Shown here piece by piece: positions 1,546-47,420 of a DNA stretch of 64,000 bases. A program made the translations under genes and the position numbers. Within the stretch, counting starts at the first letter, position 1; every line of letters starts with the position of its first letter. Origin of the DNA: a virus; the IMG/VR virus record IMGVR_UViG_3300049489_001336, positions 96,001 through 160,000 of that record; one strand, 5' to 3'. The notes below the pieces were generated by a model, which saw only the letters and a list, made by a program, of their open reading frames with translations, ran no database searches and had not been told where the DNA came from.

Positions 1546-1655
1546 AGAGTAGCAAAAAGAGAAGAGTATCGAGCTACCAATGCTCGGTCTGCGGCATAAG
1601 AGGAGCCGCAGATTGGATTCGAACCAATAATGTACACCCTTCAGGCATCTACTCT
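1546..1655 (-). ncRNA. Y-RNA (YrlA)-like RNA, copy 1, with permuted tRNA module
   Basis: Closing stem AGAGUAG/CUACUCU; inner stem GAAGGGUGUAC/AUACUCUUC; T arm AUUGG-UUCGAAU-CCAAU; closed acceptor hairpin CUGCGGC/GCCGCAG; D arm CGAGC-AUUGGUA-GCUCG. Confidence 0.75.
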
Positions 1656-1867
1656 AACGTTGAGTTTAGACCTATGTAGTGCAAAACGCAACTACATGGT
1701 CATATAACTCTTTTTACAACGAACACACGCTACGCGGTACGGCGGTGCTAGCCCCATAAAACCATGGGCTTCCAAAATCACGGTCGAATGAAAACCCATG
1801 AAACACAAAAAGCGCCCGAACATACGACTCCAACCTTGGCGTTTTGGAAGGGTTGTAAGCATCGCAG

Positions 1868-2113
1868 TTACGTTTTGGGTTTGACTCCCATGTCGGAGTC
1901 ACAGAGGGCTTTGGTGAACTTATTGATACTCATGTAGAGTTCACGCTCGGCTTGGCGCACCTTAGGTTGCGCGTCGTTATTTCTAAGCCAATTGAGCCGA
2001 GTATTGATTTCTTCTTGGAACTTTGCGAGATCGGCTCTGCCTTCACGCGTCATCACCAGCGTGCACATTTCATCGACAAGTTTATCTACGAGCCAATCCG
2101 TTACGGTTGACAT
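1868..2113 (-). CDS. hypothetical protein
   Basis: 81-aa helical ORF with RBS. Confidence 0.6.
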   Translation of the reverse strand: MSTVTDWLVDKLVDEMCTLVMTREGRADLAKFQEEINTRLNWLRNNDAQPKVRQAERELYMSINKFTKALCDSDMGVKPKT

Positions 2114-2170
2114 TGCGGTGTTCTCCTCCGATTAAAAGAAACACGATTACTACAAGACACTGTTTTTTGC

Positions 2171-2209
2171 AAAAAAAAAAACGTAGCTACAAACAAGCTG
2201 TAGCTACGT
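2171..2209 (-). terminator. intrinsic terminator after the tRNA/Y-RNA transcript
   Basis: 10-bp perfect stem ACGTAGCTAC/GTAGCTACGT followed by T10 on the minus strand. Confidence 0.8.
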
Positions 2210-2217
2210 AAAAAGAA

Positions 2218-2366
2218 GCGGTAACAAAAAGTGAAAAGTCGTTTGGCTTTTGCTCTACCAACTGAGCTACCAGCCTGTAAAGACTTCTGTAAAGACTTCT
2301 GGCAGGCTGGGATGGACTCGAACCACCGACCCAAAGTGTGGATGTAGACCTTTCGGCATTTACCGC
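2218..2366 (-). ncRNA. Y-RNA-like RNA, copy 2
   Basis: Closing stem GCGGUAA/UUACCGC; GGUCUACAUC motif; T arm GGUGG-UUCGAGU-CCAUC; acceptor hairpin CCAGCCUG/CAGGCUGG with CCA and a duplicated loop; D arm UAGCUCAGUUGGUAGAGC. Abuts the tRNA-Tyr 3' end. Confidence 0.8.
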
Positions 2367-2453
2367 TGGTGCAGGAGGAAGGACTCGAACCTCCGAAGTG
2401 CTAAGCACATCTGGTTTACAGCCAGACCCCTTTGCCGCTCGGGACAATCCTGC
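2367..2453 (-). tRNA. tRNA-Tyr (GTA), CCA-encoded, long variable arm
   Basis: Complete cloverleaf GCAGGATTGTCCCGAGCGGCAAAGGGGTCTGGCT-GTA-AACCAGA...GGTTCGAGTCCTTCCTCCTGCACCA; discriminator A. Confidence 0.92.
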
Positions 2454-2458
2454 AAAAA

Positions 2459-2591
2459 GAAACAGCAAAATTAGAAGAGTTTATTTTATACTGGTTACCC
2501 AACGCCCCCATAGATTGGTGGAGGCAAGCGGATTCGAACCGCAACAGTCCTTTTGGTCAAAAAAGATGTAAACCCTTCAGGTATCTGTTTC
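2459..2591 (-). ncRNA. Y-RNA-like RNA, copy 3
   Basis: Closing stem GAAACAG/CUGUUUC; GAAGGGUUUA/UAAACUCUUC; T arm GCGG-UUCGAAU-CCGC; acceptor GCCUCCA(CCA)/UGGGGGC; reduced D arm; AGUUUU 5' leader. Confidence 0.75.
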
Positions 2592-20209: not shown

Positions 20210-20716
20210 CTACTCGAAGAGGTCTTCCGTAAGCGTTTTGATTTCGTGCTCCTCCGCATTGCCTTGAGCAATGGCAGCACGCATGGCACTCGCACGCTTG
20301 GCCGCACTCGTGGCATTTTTCAATGCATCACTTGCGCTGACCTGCGTCTGTGCGTAGATTTTGTTCGGGTCCCGCTCGTCTGCAGAATAGCCGTAGCGCT
20401 CTTTCTTGCTGCCTGTGGCTGAGCGCCACATCTTTTCTGCGCGGGCGAGGCCCCCAAGCGCCTTCACGGCAAAGCCCAAGGTGATCAATTCACCGTCAAA
20501 AGGCACTTTGACCTGAAGGTTGTACATCGCCTGTGCTTCTTGCAGCTTGGCAATGGCATACTCTGCCGCCAAATACTGCTTGACTGCATCGACGGGATGT
20601 TCCTTGGTTTCCCCAGGATAAATCTTCAACGAATCATCGAACACTCGGGAAGCCGCGTCTTTACGCAGCTCCCATTGTTTGATGGCTTCACGGATTTTGT
20701 AGCCAGTGACTTTCAC
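20210..20716 (-). CDS. helical conserved hypothetical protein directly downstream of the Y-like RNA array
   Basis: 168-aa ORF (GTG start), GGTAAAAG promoter motif upstream. Confidence 0.7.
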   Translation of the reverse strand: MKVTGYKIREAIKQWELRKDAASRVFDDSLKIYPGETKEHPVDAVKQYLAAEYAIAKLQEAQAMYNLQVKVPFDGELITLGFAVKALGGLARAEKMWRSATGSKKERYGYSADERDPNKIYAQTQVSASDALKNATSAAKRASAMRAAIAQGNAEEHEIKTLTEDLFE

Positions 20717-20780
20717 AAAGCCTCACTAGATAGTAGATGAGAGATACTTATTTACTTTTACCGTACAACAGCTAAAAAAA

Positions 20781-20852
20781 TCGAATATCTGCACGGTCTT
20801 CCATGGGATTTCCCAGCATTACTGCTGAGTCACACCCCGTGCAGATATTCGA
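20781..20852 (-). terminator. 16-bp perfect stem enclosing two mini-hairpins, followed by U7-AGC; terminator or small RNA closing the array
   Basis: TCGAATATCTGCACGG/CCGTGCAGATATTCGA. Confidence 0.6.
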
Positions 20853-20861
20853 AAAACAAGC

Positions 20862-20938
20862 GTGGAAGCAAACTTGCGATGTTCCGTTTTCGGATCCCTT
20901 TTGGGGAGCGTAGATGTAGACATCACGACATCTTCCAC
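20862..20938 (-). ncRNA. Y-like RNA, copy 4 (minimal, no tRNA module)
   Basis: GUGGAAG/CUUCCAC; AGAUG...GUCUACAUC...UUUGCU; two GAAA/AAAA mini-hairpins. Confidence 0.65.
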
Positions 20939-20948
20939 AAACTTAAAC

Positions 20949-21079
20949 GGCCAGCAAAGATTTGAGAAGTCTATTTTACGCGTGCTGCCATTACACCACC
21001 AACAGTGTTACCTGCTGGACAGGATTCGAACCTGCTCCTCGTCCGCCCAATGGATGTAAACCTCTCGGGGCATCTGGCC
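20949..21079 (-). ncRNA. Y-like RNA, copy 5 (full)
   Basis: GGCCAG/CUGGCC; GAGAGGUUUA/UAGACUUCUC; T arm GCAGG-UUCGAAU-CCUGU; acceptor CCAGCAG/CUGUUGG; D arm. Confidence 0.8.
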
Positions 21080-21090
21080 AAAACTTAAAC

Positions 21091-21224
21091 GGTCAGCAAA
21101 GATTGAAGAGTCTATTTACGCGCTCTACCACTGAGCTACCCCGGCATAGATGGCGCCAGGGGCAAGGATTTGAACCTTGCATCCTCGTCCTTAGCATGGA
21201 TGTAAACCCTTCGGGCATCTGACC
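21091..21224 (-). ncRNA. Y-like RNA, copy 6 (full)
   Basis: GGUCAG/CUGACC; GAAGGGUUUA/UAGACUCUUC; T arm CAAGG-UUCAAAU-CCUUG; acceptor CCCUGGC(GCCA)/GCCGGGG; D arm UAGCUCAGUGGUAGAGC. Confidence 0.82.
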
Positions 21225-21234
21225 AAAACTTAAA

Positions 21235-21375
21235 GCGACAGCAAAAGGCGCAGTGTCTAAATCCCTTGCGGGAGTCTGCTGCTCTACTTTTGAGCTACAC
21301 GCTTAAACAACAAGCGTAACTGGATTTGAACCAGTAACCCGCAGATTTCAATGTAGACACTACTACATCTGTCGC
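21235..21375 (-). ncRNA. Y-like RNA, copy 7 (full)
   Basis: GCGACAG/CUGUCGC; AGUGUCUA/UAGACACU; T arm ACUGG-UUCAAAU-CCAGU; acceptor UACGCUU/AAGCGUG; D arm. Confidence 0.8.
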
Positions 21376-21386
21376 AGACACTAAAA

Positions 21387-21470
21387 GGGATAGCAAAGAG
21401 TTGTCGAGTTTAGCCCCTTGCGGAGCAATTTTCTTAGCCAGAAATGTAAACCCAACGGGGCATCTATCCC
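21387..21470 (-). ncRNA. Y-like RNA, copy 8 (minimal)
   Basis: GGGAUAG/CUAUCCC; GGGUUUACAU...UAAACUC; UUUGCU. Confidence 0.65.
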
Positions 21471-21481
21471 AAAACTTAAAC

Positions 21482-21544
21482 GGGCAGCAAAGGATCGTCT
21501 GAGTCGCAATTACCAAAAATGTAGACCCAAACAAGCATCTGCCC
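21482..21544 (-). ncRNA. Y-like RNA, copy 9 (minimal, 63 nt)
   Basis: GGGCAG/CUGCCC; GGGUCUACAU...GACUC; UUUGCU; AGUUUU leader. Confidence 0.6.
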
Positions 21545-21614
21545 AAAACTTCTTTACCTCTCGATGCTCAAGCTGTCAAGCGAGCGTCGGAGAGGTCTAT
21601 ATTCTTATACCTAA

Positions 21615-38814: not shown

Positions 38815-39240
38815 TCATACCGAACCTTCAATCATCTCTCGAATGTCACACAGGCGTATTCCAATCAGGAGTTCGCCTGCCCCTACATCCGAGGGCGTTC
38901 GGTACCACCAGTCAATGGTGTAGTGCAAATCAAAATCACGTATGGTTTTATCTACTAAACGGTAGATAGCGGATGTTACAATACGGGCCATGTGCCGTGT
39001 GAAATACTGATTAAAGCCAATGATTAATTCATAGGGTACATCCACGTGCTCATTGGCTTCTGCGTAGGTGAATAACACTGATACAACGTCGTCAGGATGT
39101 GTTGTACATAGAATAAACGTCGCAGGACGTGTTGCGTGTTTAGAGACTTCACGTTTTTTCATAACTAAAAAAACGGACATGTATAGCCTTTGATAATGTA
39201 CTAAGAATCGACGAAGCAGCGTAAATTTGAGCTTTGTCAA
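38815..39240 (-). CDS. hypothetical protein
   Basis: 141-aa ORF, start uncertain. Confidence 0.5.
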   Translation of the reverse strand: MTKLKFTLLRRFLVHYQRLYMSVFLVMKKREVSKHATRPATFILCTTHPDDVVSVLFTYAEANEHVDVPYELIIGFNQYFTRHMARIVTSAIYRLVDKTIRDFDLHYTIDWWYRTPSDVGAGELLIGIRLCDIREMIEGSV

Positions 39241-40158
39241 ATTTGCGCTGATGAGTCGAGTTCTTTGTAAATTTTTGAAGAGCTCTTACTGAAGACAACG
39301 CAAGCGGAGCGCCTGCAACTACAGTGGTGCGCTATACATGTCGAAACTATTTACCACACACTCGTTTTGTACGATCACGAAGGAGCTCTGGTGCCCACAA
39401 GAGTTCACTTGATAGGTATCACGCGTAGCACCCCAAGCGGAGCTTGGAAAAAAGAGACTGGCGATTCACCAGTCACAGGTATTTTATGGGTTACAAGGCT
39501 GTGAGCGCGTCAGGGGCCTCTGCAGCAGACGAATAACGTCACGCAATACCTTTGGGACAGTTTCTGTGTGGTTGCGAATTATGGTGTAGTGTCCTTGTTT
39601 CCTAATAAATATATAAAGAACTATTTGAAGTTATAGTTTTGAAATGGCTACCATTACGCGGCGAGTATCAATACTGATCCGCGCAGCGGCACAGAGAAAA
39701 TGGCGGTACGCCATTCTTGGGAGCGTTATTTCACGCAGAGTACTCATCCCTCGCGATGGGCCTTTCCAATGCATCCACGACGCATCCCTTCGTACGATGT
39801 TCGACACTACAGACAACTAGTCTCAGTAGTCGTAAAAAACGTGAATTTCTTACGACACAGAATCTTCGGCAACAACGCGAAGCTGAGTCTTGGAAAATTC
39901 AGCGATGGTTACTGCGAAGGGGCTTGTCTCCCTTTGCGTTACCGCGAACCCCACAACGTGCCCACCCCGCACATGCAGATATCGCGGATGTACCACAGCT
40001 ACGTCATCCCCCCGGATGAGTAGCGAGACAATTTTCTTGGACGTCCCCCTCGTAACTTCACTATCGACTGTATTTTTCATAGTTCCCTTTGGTGGCTTTA
40101 AGAGACTCTACTCATCTTCGTGCACTATGCACCTTTTATTTAGTACAGCGGGTTGTTT

Positions 40159-40569
40159 TTAATGCACCGGTTCAATTCGCACGACTTTCGCTATGGGAAT
40201 AGCAAAGGCTTTATGCGGCATGTCCCGTGGCAACGTGTAAATAGAACCGCCTACTTCGGGCAATTTCCCGGTAATGCGGATGTGCTCTCGAATGGAGTCG
40301 AGAGACGCTTCCGCTTCACCTAGGTGATGCTCCACAAATACTTTTACCGTATTTGCGTCCTTTGTACTGATTTCTGAGGGCGGCTCAGAACTAAAGAACG
40401 CGCGCATTTTGTTTACCATGTCTGCACGCGTTAAACGTTGGGTCACAGTTTTACACTGTGTGCAGAGCATTTCGGCTTCGCCCGTCGCAATGACAGGACG
40501 CACTCGTTGCTCTGTATTAATTTTGCACCGAGGGCAAAGGCAGTATTGCGCGAATTTAGGAAGCGTCAC
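40159..40569 (-). CDS. zinc-ribbon protein
   Basis: CPRC...CTQC. Confidence 0.65.
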   Translation of the reverse strand: MTLPKFAQYCLCPRCKINTEQRVRPVIATGEAEMLCTQCKTVTQRLTRADMVNKMRAFFSSEPPSEISTKDANTVKVFVEHHLGEAEASLDSIREHIRITGKLPEVGGSIYTLPRDMPHKAFAIPIAKVVRIEPVH

Positions 40570-40964
40570 AAACGTACTCTAATACGCTGCACGAGTTTGT
40601 TAAAGCGCTCTGCATTGCAAAGAATGTGAATGGGGTCGTCTTCGTTCACGGTTTTCTTCACAACACGCTTATGTTCATCGCGTTCTTCGACGTAATTGAG
40701 CCTGTGGTGGGTCTTGAAATTTACTTTTCCGTGTTTAGAGACGTTAATAGGCGCTGCGTAGTGCGCGTACATTCGGTAGCGTTGGACACGTTCTTCTGTG
40801 CAACGTTGTTCCCATGTTTGGTTCAAACGTGTGTCATAGAGGACCGTACCATAGTTAGTGTCACGGACTGCTTTGGTGTTAAAGCGAATAACGACTTCGT
40901 CTTCGGTCGTGACCAAAACTTCCCGCTCAGGGAGTTTCTCTAGGAGTGCTTTAGGTTTGCCCAT
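40566..40964 (-). CDS. paralog trio member 1
   Basis: KHGKVNF...LVQRIRVRL. Confidence 0.65.
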   Translation of the reverse strand: MGKPKALLEKLPEREVLVTTEDEVVIRFNTKAVRDTNYGTVLYDTRLNQTWEQRCTEERVQRYRMYAHYAAPINVSKHGKVNFKTHHRLNYVEERDEHKRVVKKTVNEDDPIHILCNAERFNKLVQRIRVRL

Positions 40965-40967
40965 GGG

Positions 40968-41330
40968 TTAAAGCCTTATTTGGATGACCCTGGCAAGCTT
41001 CCGTAAGTGTTCAGGATCGTCGTCGTAGCTGTACGGCTCTTCTTCGATCCCTGCGTTGTATTTTTCTTGAAAAGCTATTTCTTCCTCAAACTGCGTGTTA
41101 TGTTCAGGATAACACTTAGAATAGAGTTCCCAACGCTGTTTGGTGCGTTCGACGTCGTAAGGTGTTTTTTGCACTTTACCTTCGAAAAACCGGTACTTGC
41201 CTTTCTTGCTACAATAACCGGGGGGCGTTTTTGCGGTGTAACCCTTTGCTTCAAGCGGAATGGCCAAGTTTAATTTGTAAACCAGCTCATCTTTGACCGT
41301 GATTACGAAGTGCCCTGGAATGTAGGTCAT
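40968..41330 (-). CDS. paralog trio member 2
   Basis: KKGKYRFFEGK...PYSYD...LARVIQIRL. Confidence 0.7.
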   Translation of the reverse strand: MTYIPGHFVITVKDELVYKLNLAIPLEAKGYTAKTPPGYCSKKGKYRFFEGKVQKTPYDVERTKQRWELYSKCYPEHNTQFEEEIAFQEKYNAGIEEEPYSYDDDPEHLRKLARVIQIRL

Positions 41331-41728
41331 AGTTTTATAACCACGCGCTGTACCATTCGATGTAAATCGCCGATATTTACGTCGTAGGTATAGGGCTTGT
41401 CAGGGTCATTACAGTAAAGCCACGTATATTGGCTCCTGAATTTGTACAATTTCTTGGGGTCGTTTTTACATTGCGTGAATTTCTCTTTGTACTCTTCTTC
41501 TGTGATAATTTGCTTTTTACCCGCAAAGAACGAGTACTGGCCTTTTTTGTCGACGTGACCGAGGTGTACGTTGTTCACGACATAGAAATCCTGAGAACAG
41601 TAGTCATAGTTATTTTGTCTGTACAACAGCCAGGATTGCGTAGAAAATGCGAACAGGTTACTACTGAGAACGTACTTTAGGTCTCCCTCGACAGAGTTGA
41701 GGAAGAACCCTTCTGCAGAGATTGCCAT
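41327..41728 (-). CDS. paralog trio member 3
   Basis: KKGQYSFFAGK...PYTYD...MVQRVVIKL. Confidence 0.7.
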   Translation of the reverse strand: MAISAEGFFLNSVEGDLKYVLSSNLFAFSTQSWLLYRQNNYDYCSQDFYVVNNVHLGHVDKKGQYSFFAGKKQIITEEEYKEKFTQCKNDPKKLYKFRSQYTWLYCNDPDKPYTYDVNIGDLHRMVQRVVIKL

Positions 41729-41731
41729 GGT

Positions 41732-42694
41732 TCACTCTTTGGTTGCGCTCTTTCGCTTACGAGATTTGGCAACGGCCAAGCGCAGCTTTTCTAGGCTGTT
41801 TTGGAATTGAACCGCGACGTCGCCCTTGAGCGTGATTTCGTCTTTCTCGAAGATCTTCAGCATTTGAAGAGCTGCGTCGTTGTCGCCGAAGCGCACTTGT
41901 TCTTCGACACGGCGTTTCATTTGGTCGAGAGCCGTCGCCTTTTCAAAGTACTTCTTGGAGACCTCGCAAATCTCGTCAGAAATACCGGGCATGCCTCTGT
42001 ACAGGGTTTTGTTGATTTGGCGTTCAAGCTCCTGGCCTTCTTTGCCTTTGGCTTCGATTTGCTCAATCAGAGCTTTGCGCTTTTCTTCGATGCTCTTTAC
42101 ATGAGCCCGGAATTGACCAATGGTCATGTTTTGGTCGATGTCTGCCAGCGAAATATCCTCGCTGAGCTCATTGAGCTCATCAACAAGGTCTTGCGCCTCG
42201 GTTTCGAGCGCGTCGCGGCGAATCATCTTGGTAGCTGTCTCGGGGTCCAAGACTTCCATTGCTTTGTTGATGCTCGGAAGCATCTTCAACAATTCGGTGA
42301 CGCGATTGTTGACGATAATTTCAAGGTCTTGGACAGACCGCTCTGTGCCCGCTACTAGGTCTCCCGAGTAGTACTGTTGCCCCCAGTTGCTACGGCCGAT
42401 TTCTTCGCCGAGTTCCCGGAAACGAGGCGTGCCCAAGAAGTGCTTCTCATTGGCACGCCGCGCAATCTCGTAGCTAATACGCCTAAAGATATAAATTTCA
42501 GCGTTGGCGCGTTTGTTGAAAAGGGCAACGTAGTCTTTCTTCTTGTCGTCGCTCCAGGTAGCGATGGCGCCGGAGTTCTCAGAAGCAACAACCAGACTGT
42601 CGAATTCACTCATTTTACGTTTCCTTGTTAGACAAATAAAAATGGCCCTTGTGAGAAGGGCCGCGTTAGACATACGTCTATGTACTTTTACCAA
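41732..42694 (-). CDS. coiled-coil protein (start likely MSEFDS)
   Basis: Long heptad-rich helices. Confidence 0.7.
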   Translation of the reverse strand: MVKVHRRMSNAALLTRAIFICLTRKRKMSEFDSLVVASENSGAIATWSDDKKKDYVALFNKRANAEIYIFRRISYEIARRANEKHFLGTPRFRELGEEIGRSNWGQQYYSGDLVAGTERSVQDLEIIVNNRVTELLKMLPSINKAMEVLDPETATKMIRRDALETEAQDLVDELNELSEDISLADIDQNMTIGQFRAHVKSIEEKRKALIEQIEAKGKEGQELERQINKTLYRGMPGISDEICEVSKKYFEKATALDQMKRRVEEQVRFGDNDAALQMLKIFEKDEITLKGDVAVQFQNSLEKLRLAVAKSRKRKSATKE

Positions 42695-42702
42695 AAAACT
42701 GA

Positions 42703-42948
42703 TTACAGTTTTTCTGGGGGTGTAATAAAGGCTTCAACGGCTTCGGCTAATTTGTCATCTTCGATTTGAAATAACAAATCAGGGCATGCGTTGAGAAGTA
42801 ATTGACCAAGCCGTTGTTCAGGAACCGACAACCACGCGTTAAAAATGCGAATCAGAATCTCTTTCTTTGTACGAGCCGAAACAGCGCGCCCACGCCGCTC
42901 AAGCTCTTTTTCAATTTCACTGGGGCTGGGTATCATTGGTATACCCAT
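42703..42948 (-). CDS. small conserved phage protein
   Basis: AWLSVPEQRLGQLL...DLLFQIEDDKL pattern. Confidence 0.6.
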   Translation of the reverse strand: MGIPMIPSPSEIEKELERRGRAVSARTKKEILIRIFNAWLSVPEQRLGQLLLNACPDLLFQIEDDKLAEAVEAFITPPEKL

Positions 42949-43759
42949 TATAGATAGCCTCCAAGTACTTGCGTTGTTCCTCGGATAGGTTATCCATCCG
43001 CAAGCAGAATTCCAGGTAGTCGGGCTCGATGCTGAGTACTTCCGCTACAAAGCGCCCTGAATGTTTTCCTGCGGTGAATTTCCAAATGTTATTTTCGGAA
43101 TCAACCTTGGTGATGATTTTGCTGAAGCTCTTAGGCTTCTCCAACGCTTCTTTCACAGCATTGGCATCAACAACGATTTGACCCTTGAGGGTGTCACGCA
43201 TTTTCTTGAGGATATCCACCATGGCGAGCACGTCGCTTAGAGACGTATGCGCTTCGGTGTGAGTCACACCGTAGGCTTCGCTCAAGACCTGCAAACGGTA
43301 GGCAGGGCGCATAGCCCCCAACGTCACCAAGTCAGTGAAAATGGCAACGCCAACCGTGTCCAACCCATGATAACCAAAGATACTGTCATAGCCCTTGGAG
43401 TGCTTTTCCTTTTTCCAGTGCTTGTTGAACAAAGCCTTGAGAAAGCCACGGTCAAAGGGCAAGTTGTGCGCAATCTGTTTGAGACGGCTGTAGCCCTTTA
43501 AAAAGGCGTACACGCCGTTAAACATTTCTTCTTGGGTGACGGCACCGAGAGAATCCCATTTCTCTTTGGTATAGCCGTTGACTTTAAGAGCGCCTTCGTC
43601 AATAACGGCACCCTCGGATGGATGCGCGAAAAAAGTAACACCACTGACCGTATTGAGAGACTCATCTAATACGAGCATGCTGATGCTAATGATTTCGTTT
43701 ACTTCTTCGTTGAGACCTGTGGTCTCTGTATCAAAGGCGAGAAACTCAGCTTTAGGCAT
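42917..43759 (-). CDS. DEDDh 3'-5' exonuclease (DnaQ/epsilon-like) with small C-terminal FxxGKH domain
   Basis: FDTETTG, AHNLPFD, AHTSLSD; WKFTAGKHSG. Confidence 0.88.
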   Translation of the reverse strand: MPKAEFLAFDTETTGLNEEVNEIISISMLVLDESLNTVSGVTFFAHPSEGAVIDEGALKVNGYTKEKWDSLGAVTQEEMFNGVYAFLKGYSRLKQIAHNLPFDRGFLKALFNKHWKKEKHSKGYDSIFGYHGLDTVGVAIFTDLVTLGAMRPAYRLQVLSEAYGVTHTEAHTSLSDVLAMVDILKKMRDTLKGQIVVDANAVKEALEKPKSFSKIITKVDSENNIWKFTAGKHSGRFVAEVLSIEPDYLEFCLRMDNLSEEQRKYLEAIYNGYTNDTQPQ

Positions 43760-43762
43760 GTT

Positions 43763-44380
43763 CTAAAACCCCAGTGTGCTAAGGAATTCTTCTACGAGAT
43801 CTCGCAGAAGATACAATTCCCGCCCTTTGTTGTCGATGACATAATCTTCTTTTATCTCGCTTAATTCCGTTTCTGATTTATGCGAGGATGTTTGCAAGTC
43901 CGCTTCGGGGCGCTTCACGCGTACGATCAAACCGCCTGCGTTTTGTATCGCATTTGCCTCGGACAGAAAGCGAATGTCAGACACCACCACAAGCTTTGTA
44001 TGGTTGCTCGGGTGGTCGAGGAGCTTGCGCGCACGTCCAATCATAAGTTTCGACCAAACGTCTTCGTGGACATGGCGAAACCCTTCTGTACCTACGTACT
44101 GCAAAATACGCCGCCCACTCCAACCGGGGACGCTTTCTAAAAGCGCTTCTTTTTGGGCTTGAGAGCCGTAGAACGCTTCGCGAGGAACATCGAACGCCGT
44201 CGAGAACACGTCAAAGCACATTTCTTTGAGCGGATCTGCACAGGCAATTTTGGTTGCTTGGTGGAAGTGTTTGCTGCGGAGCTTGACAAGCTCGCAGATA
44301 AAGTCTGAAACGGTGTCTTTGCCTGCCCCTGCGCGGCCAGTAATCCCAAGGATGGGCGTTGCCAATTCAATTTTTGCCAT
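43763..44380 (-). CDS. deoxynucleoside monophosphate kinase
   Basis: GITGRAGAGKDT, ADPLK, RRILQYVGTEGFR, SDIRFLSE, HKSE. Confidence 0.9.
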   Translation of the reverse strand: MAKIELATPILGITGRAGAGKDTVSDFICELVKLRSKHFHQATKIACADPLKEMCFDVFSTAFDVPREAFYGSQAQKEALLESVPGWSGRRILQYVGTEGFRHVHEDVWSKLMIGRARKLLDHPSNHTKLVVVSDIRFLSEANAIQNAGGLIVRVKRPEADLQTSSHKSETELSEIKEDYVIDNKGRELYLLRDLVEEFLSTLGF

Positions 44381-44431
44381 CCGCGCAAGATATCAAATAC
44401 ACATTTAGGTGTAAATGGCTATGCTTATGCC

Positions 44432-44728
44432 ATGAATACAGTAACAGTACGTGGAGTACTCAAAACATGTCCCGCAACGGGCGCACGTAAATGGGCGGGT
44501 TACGTGTCAGAAGACACAGAAGTACCTGCTGGTTTGGTGGCAGCCTCAATTGAGGTGTTGGACCCTGAAGACCAGACGGGTAATCGCTGGATTTTAGCAG
44601 TCTCGGAGCCCTTGACGCCTTTGGATTCTGCGACATTAGACGCGCTTGCGCAGGGAGACGCTGTGCGCTTGGCAAAGTCTAAGCTAACCGACGCAGACCT
44701 CGCGGCATTGGGTCTCACGCGCGAATAG
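44432..44728 (+). CDS. hypothetical protein, probably leaderless
   Basis: TATGCT-N6-ATG; isolated plus-strand ORF. Confidence 0.55.
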   Translation: MNTVTVRGVLKTCPATGARKWAGYVSEDTEVPAGLVAASIEVLDPEDQTGNRWILAVSEPLTPLDSATLDALAQGDAVRLAKSKLTDADLAALGLTRE

Positions 44729-44735
44729 CTAAAAA

Positions 44736-45217
44736 AGAGTGAGTGCCTTGAGTAGCCTACTTGCTACACAGTAGGCTGTGCTTTGTCACGAGATAAGAGA
44801 GTCGATCTCGTGATTAAGCGTGTGCATAAAACATCTCAGTGACGGAGCGTCACTGGTTGCGTGTTCACGCGCGCACCCACTCTTAAACTCTACCTTGGTT
44901 ATCTGGAAGACCAAGTCCGAAGGACAGGGTCTGACTTTTACTTTTTAACCACCAAAGGCCTATTTATGCATGACGGAACATCATGCCGATAAGGATCTTG
45001 TCATCAAGACGCGTAGAGTTTAACCATGCTTTTTAGTTTGGCCTGGAGCCGTGCTGGAGTGTGCGAAATTTCTCATGCGACCGACCGAAAATTTCGCGAC
45101 ACGGAAGCTTCGGCGCAAGGGCCCGACGTCGTATTAAGCGTGCTTAATCGCGTCGGTGTTCTATTTGATCAGCGGTACACTGATGCGTTTATCCTAGGAT
45201 GCCATGGTCAAACAAAA
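44736..45217. ncRNA. candidate structured RNA region of three abutting multi-branched domains
   Basis: Closing stems at 44736-46/44873-83, 44883-93/45013-23 and 45031-43/45206-17, each enclosing 3-4 hairpins. Confidence 0.5.
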
Positions 45218-45220
45218 CTA

Positions 45221-46222
45221 TTACGACTTACGCTGCGAACCGTTGTTCTCGGCGCGCACCGTTTGCAGGTCGCGAAGCTCGGTAAGAGCCTGACGACCCG
45301 AAGCAGCGTCGAGCGCCTTTTCGGACAAAGAAACGTTCTTGGCGTAGGCTTCGCTGAGCTTGACGCCAAGGTCCGTGACTTGTGCGCTGAGGCGAGAAAC
45401 CTCGTCCTTCGCAGCATGCAGTTGTGCTTGTAGTTGGGCCACTTGAGACGCGTGGTCGCGCGAAGCCAGTTCGGACGCGTGCTTGTGATCGCGAGAAATG
45501 GCACTTGCAACAGTAGCCACTTCCTTCTTCACCGCAGCGTCGATTTCATCCTGGATGCCAGCAATGCGAGTCATTGCAGCAATAAATTCAGACTCGCGCG
45601 CCTTGAGGGCGCTTTCACGAGACTGGAAGTTACGTTCGAATTCCGCCGCGCGAAGGCTTTCGGCCCGCTTGGCGTCTTCCATGGCGTTTTTCCACACGGT
45701 CTCTTCGTTCCGGCGACGGAGATCTCGCTCGTACTTGTACTGCTCTTCTTCGCGAATGCGCGTCTTAAGCGCTTCGTCGTTTCGTTCCTGGACCAGCTTG
45801 GCGTGTGCGGCCTTTTCGACATCCCACTGCTGACGAAGTGCCGCAATCTCGCTTTCCAGAGCCAACTTCTGCCGGTCATGGTCTTCGACCAACGCGGCAA
45901 GCGACGAACCAATGACCTCTTTGGCAAACAACGCCTCAAGGTCTTTCTGTTTGACCTGAATTGCGAGATCGATCTCTTCGAGACGACGGGTCTTTGCCGT
46001 GAGCGTTTCGCTCAAGCTCGAAAGAGCACGGACGGTGCTCAAGCTGGCGTCCGTGATTTCTTTGACCACGGAGTCTACGGTGATTCCCTGAACCGCTTTG
46101 CGTGCAGTATCTGCGCGGGCTTCTGCTGCTTCACGTTCCTTGGGAGGAATTCCCGAAGCCTGAGACAACTGAGCCTTAAGATTTGCAACGTCGCGTTCGA
46201 GATCTGCTTTGGTCTTACCCAC
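45221..46222 (-). CDS. long coiled-coil protein
   Basis: 333 aa, heptad and EE/RR-rich (RIREEEQYKYERDLRRR). Confidence 0.75.
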   Translation of the reverse strand: MGKTKADLERDVANLKAQLSQASGIPPKEREAAEARADTARKAVQGITVDSVVKEITDASLSTVRALSSLSETLTAKTRRLEEIDLAIQVKQKDLEALFAKEVIGSSLAALVEDHDRQKLALESEIAALRQQWDVEKAAHAKLVQERNDEALKTRIREEEQYKYERDLRRRNEETVWKNAMEDAKRAESLRAAEFERNFQSRESALKARESEFIAAMTRIAGIQDEIDAAVKKEVATVASAISRDHKHASELASRDHASQVAQLQAQLHAAKDEVSRLSAQVTDLGVKLSEAYAKNVSLSEKALDAASGRQALTELRDLQTVRAENNGSQRKS

Positions 46223-46400
46223 AAGTACCTCTGTCTTTTACTTTACCGAATTCAAAAAATGCAGGTGATAAATATATCGCGTTTTTAACGGCAACGCTTG
46301 CTTTTAAGAGGTTTGAAAGGTCTGTAGCGTACACGCTAGTGCAGCGAAAGACCCGCAAACCGAGAAAGTTGCGCAGCAATGCGCGATTAATCAGTATTTT

Positions 46401-46700
46401 TGGCGGTGCGCCAAATTCCGTTTGTAGACGGAGCCGTTGCCGTAATGCTGTGCTCTACAGATAATGCGGACCGGAACCCTGGAAGGGTGTAGGTCCTACA
46501 TTATTTGTATACTGGCTAAGTTTGTTATTATTTAACACTAGCGGTTCACTAGCTTACTGTTTAAGTGCCATTACGAACAGCTATGCTTGAATGCTCAAAA
46601 CTTGGAATCCCGCAAGTTTTGGGCGGATCTCGGAAGGACCCCGCGTAGGGGTACGAAGTTGACGGAACGTCAACCAGGGAGTGGCTTTACCACAACGCCA
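46401..46700 (+). ncRNA. candidate ~300-nt structured RNA with GGA(A) loops
   Basis: TGGCG/CGCCA closing; stems 46457-66/46499-508, 46596-604/46613-21 and 46658-74; wobbles favour the plus strand. Confidence 0.45.
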
Positions 46701-46974
46701 TAGCTGTCACCTCTTCCTGTATTGCCCCGCTTTATTGCATTCGGTGGAGCATTGGAGAGCCATACGCGAAGCGTGGTCGCGCTGGGACTATCATATACAA
46801 GACCGGCGAAACACCGATCGATACAACGATTGCGAAGAGGCCAAAATGATTAAGACTATTCTGGATATACCTTTAAGTCAGGTTGATCTAGTTACTGCAT
46901 TGTGGATCGCACCTTTCTTTATTTGTATTCCAGCTGTCTTTTCTGCGTTCATGAACGCAGGTAAATAAATCCAC

Positions 46975-47420
46975 ACGCCTGGTGTGTAATAATTTTAATT
47001 AAAAGCGTAGCATTTAATTAAAATTATTTGAGCAACGCGTACCACACTGAAAGTGTACACGTATTTAACTACAACGACGGTTCGTCGTCTTGTGAGCTTT
47101 CCGGAATGAAGCTAACTCACAATTTGGTTCGCGTGTGATGACATGCCTGTTATGTGTAAGCGACTTATTACTTAACAACGCAGTTGTTAATTAATAAGGC
47201 AGCGACGTTAGCGTACCGACTTCTTTCGAAGAAATTTTAACGGACTAATAGCGTAGGCGTAAGCCGTAGTTATTAGTACTTTAAAATTGCGTCCCCACAG
47301 GGGTCGAAAGAAGGCGACGCGCAGTATCCTATACAGCCGTGATGGCGATACGCCATCTAAAGGAATTCCTTAGCGCATGTCGTAAATACTGCGTATACCG
47401 AAGTACACGCGTAGTCAAAT
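46975..47420. ncRNA. candidate ~450-nt structured RNA region
   Basis: 16-bp inverted repeat 46988-47003/47013-28; many hairpins; C(UUCG)G hairpin at 47391-47410 on the minus strand right after a GGTAAAAG motif. Confidence 0.45.

What the first reader, a model, noticed from the sequence alone, without database searches (positions are those of the whole stretch)
20862..21544. Tandem array of six Y-RNA-like ncRNAs with co-varying stems, and no Ro60 gene in the window
Seen: six minus-strand units separated by short A/U-rich spacers, mostly UUUAAGUUUU. Each closing stem differs in sequence but pairs perfectly: GUGGAAG/CUUCCAC, GGCCAG/CUGGCC, GGUCAG/CUGACC, GCGACAG/CUGUCGC, GGGAUAG/CUAUCCC, GGGCAG/CUGCCC. 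All share an AGAUG/UUUGCU internal loop and a 5' GU(U/C)UACAU motif, which most pair with UA(A/G)AC. Three units carry a tRNA module in the order T arm, closed acceptor hairpin, D arm. Established: that permuted order is the hallmark of bacterial YrlA Y RNAs, which bind the Ro60/Rsr (TROVE) protein and are usually encoded next to it, often with RtcB. Inference: the phage mass-produces a diversified set of Y-RNA mimics to titrate or retarget a host Rsr-PNPase/RtcB RNA repair and decay system, or as decoys for tRNA-targeting defence nucleases. I know of no described polycistronic six-copy phage array like this, but have not searched.
Basis: partly seen in the sequence, partly recalled or inferred. 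Interest (0 to 1): 0.92.

Follow-up and report, generated by a model that had tools for sequence, protein, structure and literature searches.

The report
Six-gene Y RNA array in phage
A 190-kb freshwater phage carries six back-to-back small RNA genes of the Y RNA type, and it also encodes their likely partner, the Ro60/Rsr ring protein, 30 kb away just outside the window, so this is an enlarged and detached version of a known RNA-protein pair rather than an orphan decoy system.

Summary
Six minus-strand units (63-141 nt, window 21544-20862) share one scaffold: a unit-specific 7-bp closing stem, an AUG/UUUG internal loop, a second co-varying stem ending in UACAU, and a variable head. In U3-U5 the head is a T arm, a closed acceptor-like hairpin and a D arm.

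Rfam YrlA matches U3-U5 only below threshold. A model built solely from relatives scores five of the six units at 33-97 bits.

The "no Ro60" premise is a window artefact. The genome encodes a full-length TROVE+vWA Rsr on the same strand, 30 kb away. Three more units flank tRNA-Tyr at window 1546-2591, giving nine in all. RtcB is absent.

In 52 related IMG/VR phage loci, all 140 family matches lie on the rsr strand. Arrays of 6-10 units and clusters detached by 10-40 kb both occur among these relatives.

Best reading: one transcription unit yields six cognate Y RNAs for the phage Rsr, with different heads acting as adaptors.

Published work describes only one or two Y RNAs within 4 kb of rsr. 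However, this scan has already found such arrays repeatedly on other DNA. I rate it a real, moderately interesting variant of a known kind.

The parts
21551..21579 (-). Promoter-like element: TTGACA, 17 nt, TAAAGA. The -10 hexamer ends 6 nt before the first base of U1.
   Evidence: Read from the sequence. The -35 hexamer matches 6/6 and the -10 only 3/6, and the consensus scan did not call it. Similar elements, TTGCAC-17-CATACT and TTGCGT-17-TAAACT, sit 7 nt before units A and C. This is an inference.
21482..21544 (-). U1: 63-nt hairpin-type Y RNA-like unit with a U-rich loop (YrlB-like).
   Evidence: Fold z -2.98. Scores 33.0 bits with model R2, built from relatives only. Rfam YrlB gives 19.1 bits, E 1.1.
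21387..21470 (-). U2: 84-nt unit whose head is two small hairpins, one with a GCAA loop.
   Evidence: Fold z -2.93. R2 41.6 bits.
21235..21375 (-). U3: 141-nt unit with a tRNA-like head (T arm, 7-bp acceptor-like hairpin, D arm) plus an extra GCAA hairpin.
   Evidence: Rfam YrlA 34.1 bits, E 2.7e-5. R2 80.3 bits. Fold z -3.93.
21091..21224 (-). U4: 134-nt unit with a canonical T arm and D arm. The acceptor-like hairpin loop begins G-CCA.
   Evidence: Rfam YrlA 42.7 bits, E 9e-8. R2 97.4 bits, the top hit of the whole search. Fold shown.
20949..21079 (-). U5: 131-nt unit with a tRNA-like head.
   Evidence: Rfam YrlA 25.8 bits, E 0.0067. R2 83.1 bits.
20862..20938 (-). U6: 77-nt unit whose head is two small hairpins.
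   Evidence: Shares the closing stem, the AUG/UUUG loop and UACAU. Fold z -3.05. R1 38.6 bits, by construction. Not recovered by R2 at E<=1e-3.
20774..20851 (-). Intrinsic-terminator-like element: a 15-bp stem with an inner hairpin, then A and U7.
   Evidence: Fold -36.9 kcal/mol, z -6.83. The simple scan missed it because the loop is long.
2459..2591 (-). Unit A, the seventh family member, with a tRNA-like head. It lies directly upstream of tRNA-Tyr.
   Evidence: R1 85.6 bits. R2 69.7 bits. Sequence.
2367..2453 (-). tRNA-Tyr(GUA) with an encoded CCA, abutting unit B.
   Evidence: ARAGORN. Rfam tRNA 40.7 bits.
2218..2366 (-). Unit B, the most canonical YrlA-like unit. It starts one base after the CCA of tRNA-Tyr and is followed by a hairpin and U11.
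   Evidence: Rfam YrlA 58.2 bits. R2 90.8 bits.
1546..1655 (-). Unit C, a single unit with its own promoter-like element and terminator-like hairpin.
   Evidence: R1 82.6 bits. R2 75.6 bits. Sequence.

Best explanation
The six units form one transcription unit: a promoter-like element, six Y RNA-like modules and a strong hairpin-plus-U7 terminator. The roughly 770-nt precursor is cut in the conserved A/U-rich spacers and trimmed back to the closing stems, giving six stable RNAs of 63-141 nt.

All six present the same docking module: the closing stem, the AUG/UUUG internal loop, the second stem and UACAU. This corresponds to the Ro60-binding module of bacterial YrlA/YrlB. The RNAs are therefore the cognate ligands of the phage's own Ro60/Rsr protein, which is encoded 30 kb downstream on the same strand.

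The variable heads are three tRNA-like domains, one U-rich hairpin and two double-hairpin heads. They act as adaptors that connect Rsr to different partners. These partners are probably host 3'-5' exoribonucleases such as PNPase, and tRNA-recognising enzymes. One protein would thus be given several specificities during infection.

Shown here: the units, their shared architecture and covariation, their family membership, the phage Rsr gene, and the strand-linked association of this RNA family with rsr in relatives.

Inferred: the transcript boundaries, the processing, Rsr binding and the adaptor role.
For: - Architecture and compensatory stems are established.
- Rfam YrlA aligns U3-U5 end to end (E 9e-8 to 7e-3 locally; 2.9e-9 to 2.2e-4 genome-wide).
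- The genome holds a 588-aa TROVE + vWA_Ro60 protein. It matches NCBIfam Rsr at 81 bits and D. radiodurans Rsr (2nvo) at E 2e-14 over nearly its full length.
- A genome-wide search with model R1 finds exactly nine units, all on the rsr strand.
- In 52 loci of related phage Rsr genes, R1 finds 62 matches and R2 finds 140. Every one is on the rsr strand, in 35 of 52 loci.
- Covariation on 55 distinct sequences from relatives: 91% of cells paired against 60% in shuffles and about 40% when partners are slid; 449 two-sided changes against 129.
- Model R2 was built without the window's units, yet it scores U4, U5, U3, U2 and U1 at 97, 83, 80, 42 and 33 bits. It finds nothing else in 84 kb of this genome.
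- Whole-genome searches of relatives place the family near rsr, or 10-40 kb from it on the same strand.
- Published precedent: M. smegmatis YrlA and YrlB are cut from one precursor and bind Rsr (PMC4201824). Thermus phage phiLo Ro60 binds two adjacent Yrl RNAs and, together with them, host PNPase (PMC12135203).
Against: - No unit reaches the Rfam gathering scores (69 for YrlA, 97 for YrlB).
- The published GNCGAAN0-1G motif is not literally present. It reads G-N-C-A-G-A-U-G, with the opposite strand changed to match.
- The array is 30 kb from rsr, against the published rule of within 4 kb.
- No expression or binding data exist.
- The -10 hexamer is weak (3/6), and the phage reportedly has its own RNA polymerase, so the promoter call is uncertain.
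- U6 is not recovered by the relatives-only model.
- R2 descends from hits recruited by a model of the window's own units, so it is not fully independent.
Confidence: 0.75

Rival explanations
1. Rsr-independent tRNA mimics. The heads act as sponges or decoys for host tRNA-binding enzymes or tRNA-directed defence nucleases, and the shared stem only stabilises the RNAs.
For: - U3-U5 have near-canonical T and D arms and 7-bp acceptor-like stems.
- The D arm of U4 is tRNA-like enough that contigs of unrelated organisms align to it.
- The high copy number fits a titration role.
Against: - No unit has an anticodon arm, which is the usual target of anticodon nucleases.
- Three of the six units have no tRNA-like head, yet they keep the shared docking module.
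- The family is linked by strand and by position to rsr in relatives.
- The most conserved part is the module that matches the Ro60-binding site, not the head.
Confidence: 0.1
2. One reading: the array titrates or retargets a host Rsr-PNPase/RtcB system.
For: - The docking module resembles that of bacterial YrlA/YrlB.
- The phage has no RtcB and no PNPase/RNase PH domain of its own, so host enzymes must be involved in some way.
Against: - The phage brings its own Rsr.
- The docking motif is a clade-specific variant (CAG.AUG/UUUG.CUG). It is shared with units lying directly beside rsr in relative L090, which points to co-evolution with the phage protein.
- The host is unknown, so whether a host Rsr exists cannot be checked.
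Confidence: 0.07
3. Decayed remains of a tRNA cluster or a repeat family with no present function.
For: The heads are tRNA-derived. Related phages interleave such units with real tRNA genes.
Against: - Every closing stem is perfectly compensated.
- Covariation across 55 distinct relatives is strong.
- Each of the three clusters is flanked by a promoter-like and a terminator-like element.
- The sequence is identical in contigs from two freshwater studies.
Confidence: 0.03

Closest known systems
YrlA / YrlB of Salmonella Typhimurium and Mycobacterium smegmatis (Rfam RF02553, RF02565; Chen et al. 2014, PMC4201824)
   Same: - The closing stem plus AUG-containing internal loop forms the Ro60-docking module.
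- The YrlA head has the order T arm, closed acceptor-like hairpin, D arm.
- A hairpin-type second RNA (YrlB) also exists.
- In M. smegmatis both RNAs are cut from one precursor.
- The RNAs lie on the same strand as rsr.
   Different: - There are six units in one array (nine per genome) instead of one or two.
- The array is 30 kb from rsr instead of within 4 kb.
- The docking motif has two base pairs swapped (CAG/CUG in place of CGA/UCG).
- The acceptor-like stems are 7 bp with longer loops, some of which start N-CCA.
- Scores fall below the Rfam thresholds.
Thermus phage phiLo Ro60 with Yrl1/Yrl2 (NAR 2025, PMC12135203)
   Same: A phage-encoded Ro60 with phage-encoded Y RNA-like partners. That work demonstrates binding and a ternary complex with host PNPase, which is the mechanism proposed here.
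   Different: There are two adjacent RNAs without tRNA-like heads. Here there are nine RNAs in three detached transcription units, six of them with tRNA-like heads. The proteins are only distantly related: our Rsr hits 9kop/9l5y at E 1.7e-9.
Rsr-linked Y RNA arrays in uncultured large phages (IMG/VR relatives L071-L122) and Myxococcus phage Mx1
   Same: The same RNA family and an Rsr 39-49% identical. There are arrays of 6-10 units (L078, L079, L084, L088, L071) and clusters detached by 10-40 kb (G011-G014). Mx1 has two unannotated units inside its tRNA cluster, 11-12 kb upstream of rsr.
   Different: - Most relatives keep the array beside rsr, and many interleave it with tRNA genes.
- This array contains only Y units, with a nearly uniform spacer.
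- I found no published description of these relatives.
Deinococcus radiodurans Rsr-Yrn1-PNPase (RYPER)
   Same: The functional model is the same: the Y RNA docks on the Ro60 ring and its distal part tethers an exoribonuclease (as summarised in PMC4201824).
   Different: Yrn1 belongs to a separate sequence lineage and orders its tRNA-like elements differently. No homology to it was detected here.

Membership tests
YrlA (Rfam RF02553) | Score at or above the curated gathering threshold (69 bits) | tested here: not met
   U4 42.7, U3 34.1 and U5 25.8 bits. Nothing appears in the array at the gathering threshold. The best unit in the genome, unit B, scores 58.2 bits.
YrlA (Rfam RF02553) | tRNA-like domain in the order T arm, closed acceptor-like hairpin, D arm, enclosed by the docking stems | tested here: met
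   Met for U3, U4 and U5, with full-length alignments to model positions 1-114 and matching MFE folds. U1, U2 and U6 lack the domain and are YrlB-like.
YrlA (Rfam RF02553) | GNCGAAN0-1G motif near the 5' end (Chen et al. 2014) | tested here: not met
   All six units read ...AGAUG, for example GGUCAGAUG. Relative to the motif, two pairs are exchanged and the 3' strand compensates (CUG in place of UCG). Most relatives carry the canonical CGAAUG, and L090 carries the same variant as here.
YrlA (Rfam RF02553) | Encoded within 4 kb of rsr on the same strand | tested here: not met
   The strand is the same, but the distance is about 30 kb: the array is at genome 116,862-117,544 and rsr at 85,070-86,836.
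YrlA (Rfam RF02553) | Bound by Rsr in vivo or in vitro | not testable with these tools
   No RNA-protein modelling tool is on hand, and no run recorded as RNA holds the locus.
YrlB (Rfam RF02565) | [quoted passage not shown] | tested here: not met
   U1 scores 19.1 bits, E 1.1. Its shape, a 63-nt hairpin with a U-rich loop, is similar.
Rsr-linked Y RNA-like family of large phages (model R2, defined here) | Significant score against a covariance model built only from units in Rsr loci of other phages | tested here: met
   U4 97.4, U5 83.1, U3 80.3, U2 41.6 and U1 33.0 bits. U6 is not listed at E<=1e-3. The family was originally recruited with a model of the window's own units.
Ro60/Rsr protein (partner, outside the window) | TROVE ring domain plus a C-terminal vWA domain with a MIDAS motif, over the full length | tested here: met
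   PF05731 31.2 bits and PF25045 52.4 bits, both above cut-off. Aligns to 2nvo over residues 32-483, including the DVSGSM motif. The NCBIfam Rsr equivalog cut-off of 900 is not reached (81.4 bits), so the protein is a divergent member.
tRNA | Cloverleaf with an anticodon arm, detected by ARAGORN or Rfam RF00005 | tested here: not met
   ARAGORN finds no tRNA in the array. The only Rfam tRNA match is a chimera of the U4 D arm and the U5 T arm with a 75-nt insert: 28.7 bits against a threshold of 29.

The most novel reading that the evidence does not exclude
The phage Rsr is a hub served by a bank of nine adaptor RNAs whose heads are functionally distinct. Some tRNA-like heads would be cut by RNase P in the acceptor-like loop and end in the encoded CCA, as M. 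smegmatis YrlA does. That would give two-piece, Rsr-anchored tRNA mimics. At least one of them, unit A (G1-C72, G2-C71, G3.U70, A73-CCA), could be charged by alanyl-tRNA synthetase, as tmRNA is. The same phage also appears to run a second system of one protein with many arrayed RNAs (a retron-type RT with twelve RNA units; from earlier notes, not tested here). Arrayed RNA banks may therefore be a general strategy of this phage.
Probability: 0.1. Interest if true: 0.8.

Novelty: new variant of a known kind. Interest (0 to 1): 0.5.

Why it matters
Ro60/Y RNA particles are conserved from bacteria to humans, yet their function in phages is essentially unknown. Published cases involve one or two Y RNAs beside rsr.

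This phage has nine Y RNAs that share one docking module and carry different heads. That gives a natural test of the adaptor model, in which the Y RNA decides what the Ro60 ring is tethered to.

It also shows that searches limited to within 4 kb of rsr, and the Rfam thresholds, miss most phage Y RNAs. For genome annotation, such arrays are currently left blank or called as small hypothetical ORFs, as in Myxococcus phage Mx1.

Tried and rejected
- Rfam at gathering thresholds finds nothing in the array.
- The consensus promoter/terminator scan called neither flanking element. Both were read by eye and by folding.
- blastn of the array against 50,697 phage records gave no match.
- The search for related loci with the single Rsr protein returned nothing. 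The two-sequence alignment worked.
- A 16-base motif scan of IMG/VR gave 47 stretches. Only one (L047) was a real unit, and the rest are at the level expected by chance.
- Rfam and R1 hits in Mx1 at 48.6, 49.3 and 50.1 kb overlap tandem tRNA genes. I rejected them as the dimeric-tRNA artefact described by Chen et al..
- Sequencing runs: no RNA holder is listed. The DNA contigs of two freshwater studies are identical to the window, so they add no covariation.
- The mechanical ORFs over the array have no Pfam family; the only hit is a sub-threshold DUF7429 match.
- No RtcB, no RNase PH/PNPase domain and no T4 Rnl1 were found in the genome. The Rnl1 control rang nowhere, so that blank is uninformative.
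- The Rsr neighbours in this genome are not conserved beside rsr in relatives.
- The Annual Review on bacterial Ro60 (PMC10870794) is not held.
- The host could not be assigned. The nearest cultured relatives by one structural protein infect many different Gram-negative genera.

Full report
**What is there.**
On the minus strand of window 20862-21544 lie six units of 63, 84, 141, 134, 131 and 77 nt. They are separated by 10-11-nt A/U-rich spacers, most often GUUUAAGUUUU.

Each unit has four parts:
- a closing stem that differs in sequence between units;
- an internal loop, AUG plus 1-4 nt on the 5' side opposite 3-5 nt plus UUUG on the 3' side;
- a second stem of 7-10 bp that also differs between units and runs into a conserved UACAU;
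- a variable head.

With its own partner, every closing stem pairs 7 of 7. With the partner strand of another unit, the mean is 4.5-4.7 of 7. All six MFE folds give the same architecture, with z-scores from -2.1 to -3.9.

In U3, U4 and U5 the head is a T arm (GGUUCRAAUCC), a closed 7-bp acceptor-like hairpin and a D arm. U1 is a plain hairpin with a U-rich loop. U2 and U6 each carry two small hairpins.

The AG and CU of its "AGAUG/UUUGCU loop" are paired, and U1 and U6 do not use the UARAC pairing.

**Transcription unit.**
Upstream, TTGACA-17 nt-TAAAGA ends 6 nt before U1 (21579-21551). Downstream, a 15-bp hairpin followed by U7 (20851-20774) folds at -36.9 kcal/mol, z -6.8. The simple scanner called neither element, and the -10 hexamer is weak, so the promoter is an inference. 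It gains some weight from two similarly spaced elements in front of units A and C.

The mechanical ORFs over the array have no family. The 225-aa ORF upstream and the 168-aa ORF downstream have no Pfam or PHROG hit.

**Identity.**
At gathering thresholds Rfam finds nothing in the array. With E-value reporting, YrlA (RF02553) aligns U4, U3 and U5 over all 114 model positions, at 42.7, 34.1 and 25.8 bits. YrlB touches U1 at 19.1 bits. Genome-wide, the YrlA E-values are 2.9e-9, 8.7e-7 and 2.2e-4. The units are thus YrlA/YrlB-like but not members by Rfam's criterion.

**The Ro60 gene.**
The window is bases 96,001-160,000 of a 189,879-bp IMG/VR virus record judged complete. That record encodes a 588-aa protein at 85,070-86,836 on the minus strand. 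Its evidence:
- TROVE at 31 bits and vWA_Ro60 at 52 bits, both above cut-off;
- NCBIfam Rsr at 81 bits;
- a near full-length match to D. radiodurans Rsr 2nvo (E 2e-14), and matches to Thermus phage Ro60 and to Xenopus and human Ro60.

RtcB, an RNase PH/PNPase domain and T4 Rnl1 were not found (the Rnl1 control was uninformative).

**More copies.**
A covariance model of the units (R1) finds exactly nine in the genome, all on the rsr strand. These are the six of the array plus unit A (2591-2459), unit B (2366-2218) and unit C (1655-1546).
- Unit A is followed after UUUUU by tRNA-Tyr.
- Unit B starts one base after the encoded CCA of that tRNA.
- B is followed by a hairpin and U11.
- C has its own promoter-like and terminator-like elements.

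This second cluster lies 10.7-12 kb from rsr, and the array lies 30 kb from it.

**Relatives.**
The closest cultured phage by Rsr is Myxococcus phage Mx1, at 44.6% identity. It has two unannotated units of the same design inside its tRNA cluster, 11-12 kb upstream of rsr. One overlaps a 40-codon "hypothetical protein". Other hits there are tandem-tRNA artefacts.

An alignment of two Rsr proteins recovered 52 IMG/VR loci with Rsr at 28-49% identity, on contigs of 12-512 kb.
- R1 found 62 units in them, all on the rsr strand.
- On those 55 distinct sequences, the structure is 91% paired against 60% in column shuffles and about 40% when partners are slid. There are 449 two-sided changes against 129. 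The alignment is fitted to the model, which inflates this somewhat, but the margin is large.

A second model, R2, was built from those relatives only. It finds 140 units in 35 of 52 loci (about 120 after collapsing six near-identical locus pairs). Again all are on the rsr strand. R2 scores the window's U4 as the best hit of the whole search (97.4 bits), with U5 83.1, U3 80.3, U2 41.6 and U1 33.0. It finds nothing else in 84 kb of this genome. U6 falls below E 1e-3.

**How unusual the layout is.**
Tandem arrays are common in these relatives:
- L078: ten units directly after rsr;
- L079: seven units before rsr;
- L084/L086: six units;
- L088: nine units, interleaved with tRNA genes;
- L071: about ten units.

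Detachment is also common. In four genomes with no unit within 10 kb of rsr, clusters lie on the same strand:
- G011: 10-17 kb away;
- G014: 21 kb away;
- G012: 24 kb away;
- G013: 33-40 kb away.

Neither the copy number nor the distance is therefore unique to this phage. What is particular here is a pure six-Y array with an almost uniform spacer. An AAGUUUU-like motif recurs in the spacers of L078 and L090. It fits the A/U-rich single-stranded sites preferred by RNase E-type enzymes (my own knowledge, not tested).

**Docking motif.**
The published motif GNCGAAN0-1G (PMC4201824) is present in most relatives (CGAAUGC ... UUGUCG). In this phage, and in L090, the two pairs next to the loop are exchanged (CAGAUGC ... 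UUGCUG). That is a compensated change within the presumed Rsr-binding site, consistent with co-evolution with the phage protein. This is an inference.

**Mechanism.**
The best-supported reading is that the array supplies six cognate Y RNAs for the phage Rsr. The precedents are direct:
- M. smegmatis YrlA and YrlB are processed from one precursor and bound by Rsr.
- YrlA heads are recognised by RNase P, the CCA-adding enzyme, TruB and DusA (PMC4201824).
- Thermus phage phiLo Ro60 binds its two adjacent Yrl RNAs and forms a ternary complex with host PNPase (PMC12135203).

The conserved part of the nine units is the docking module, and the variable part is the head. That is what an adaptor bank would look like.

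The decoy reading is weakened in three ways. No head has an anticodon arm, three heads are not tRNA-like at all, and the family is tied to rsr. Titration of a host Rsr cannot be excluded, because the host is unknown.

**Expression.**
No run recorded as RNA holds the locus. Contigs from two freshwater studies carry it without a single difference. There is therefore no evidence either way on expression or processing.

**Novelty.**
In the literature I could search, phage Ro60 with one or two nearby Y RNAs is known:
- 22 phages in Chen et al. 2014 (PMC4201824);
- phiLo in 2025 (PMC12135203);
- a suggestion for Listeria phage CKA15 (PMC12282133);
- a mention of TROVE proteins in jumbo phages (PMC7824862).

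I found no description of multi-unit arrays or of detached clusters. Within this scan, however, Y RNA arrays of five to ten units beside phage Ro60 have been reported repeatedly on other DNA, and a first-stage note on this genome already lists the nine units with the Rsr gene.

I rate it a new variant of a known kind. The feature is real, and it is of moderate interest.

Noticed in passing
window 1546-2591 (minus strand): A second Y RNA cluster. Unit A is followed by UUUUU and tRNA-Tyr(GUA) with an encoded CCA. Unit B follows immediately, then a hairpin and U11. After a small 81-codon ORF comes unit C, with its own promoter-like and terminator-like elements.
   Followed up: yes
window 2459-2591 (unit A), minus strand: The acceptor-like stem of unit A reads G1-C72, G2-C71, G3.U70, G4-C69 and is followed by A-CCA. 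This is the identity set of tRNA-Ala and tmRNA. Rfam gives weak permuted-tmRNA and cyanobacterial tmRNA hits on its T arm and acceptor strand (21.6 and 19.2 bits). It may be chance.
   Followed up: partly
window 21091-21224 (U4), 2459-2591 (A), 2218-2366 (B), 1546-1655 (C): The loop of the acceptor-like hairpin starts with one base and then CCA in U4, A and B, and with U-CCU in C. It looks like a circularly permuted tRNA with an encoded 3' end. Only about 4 of 38 tRNA-like units in relatives show this. It suggests RNase P cleavage and a CCA end, as in M. smegmatis YrlA.
   Followed up: partly
window 20210-20716 (minus strand): The 168-aa helical protein right after the array's terminator has homologues (35-38% identity) directly downstream of the Y RNA arrays in relatives L071 and L084/L086. 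It has no Pfam or PHROG family. The Atlas leads are Siphovirus Gp157 and DUF6847, at low recognition. It may be a conserved companion of the arrays or simply synteny.
   Followed up: partly
L123:7779-8354 (minus strand; genome 83,779-84,354): A 191-aa DEDD (RNase_T family) 3'-5' exonuclease lies about 700 bp downstream of rsr on the same strand (Pfam 27 bits; PDB 7t2s E 3e-17). It is a candidate nuclease partner, but it is not conserved beside rsr in the 52 relatives.
   Followed up: partly
L064:2169-2294 and L064:2521-2624 (Myxococcus phage Mx1, OR576727.2 45,169-45,294 and 45,521-45,624): Two unannotated Y RNA-like units sit inside the Mx1 tRNA cluster. The second overlaps the annotated 40-codon CDS WNM70101.1, which is probably not a gene.
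   Followed up: yes
L078:12019-13829, L090:11554-11856 and window 20939-21481: An AAGUUUU-like motif recurs just upstream of units in the spacers of several arrays. It may be a shared processing signal.
   Followed up: no
L123:15690-16610 and L123:18299-18961 (genome 91,690-92,610 and 94,299-94,961): The phage encodes a response-regulator-GGDEF diguanylate cyclase (GGDEF 156 bits) and an HD_4 (RelA/SpoT-type HD) protein between rsr and the second Y cluster.
   Followed up: no
window 39176-47383 and beyond (from earlier notes of this scan): The same genome is reported to hold twelve retron-like RNA units in arrays about 40 kb from its only reverse transcriptase. That would be a second system of one protein with many arrayed RNAs in one phage. 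I did not check it.
   Followed up: no
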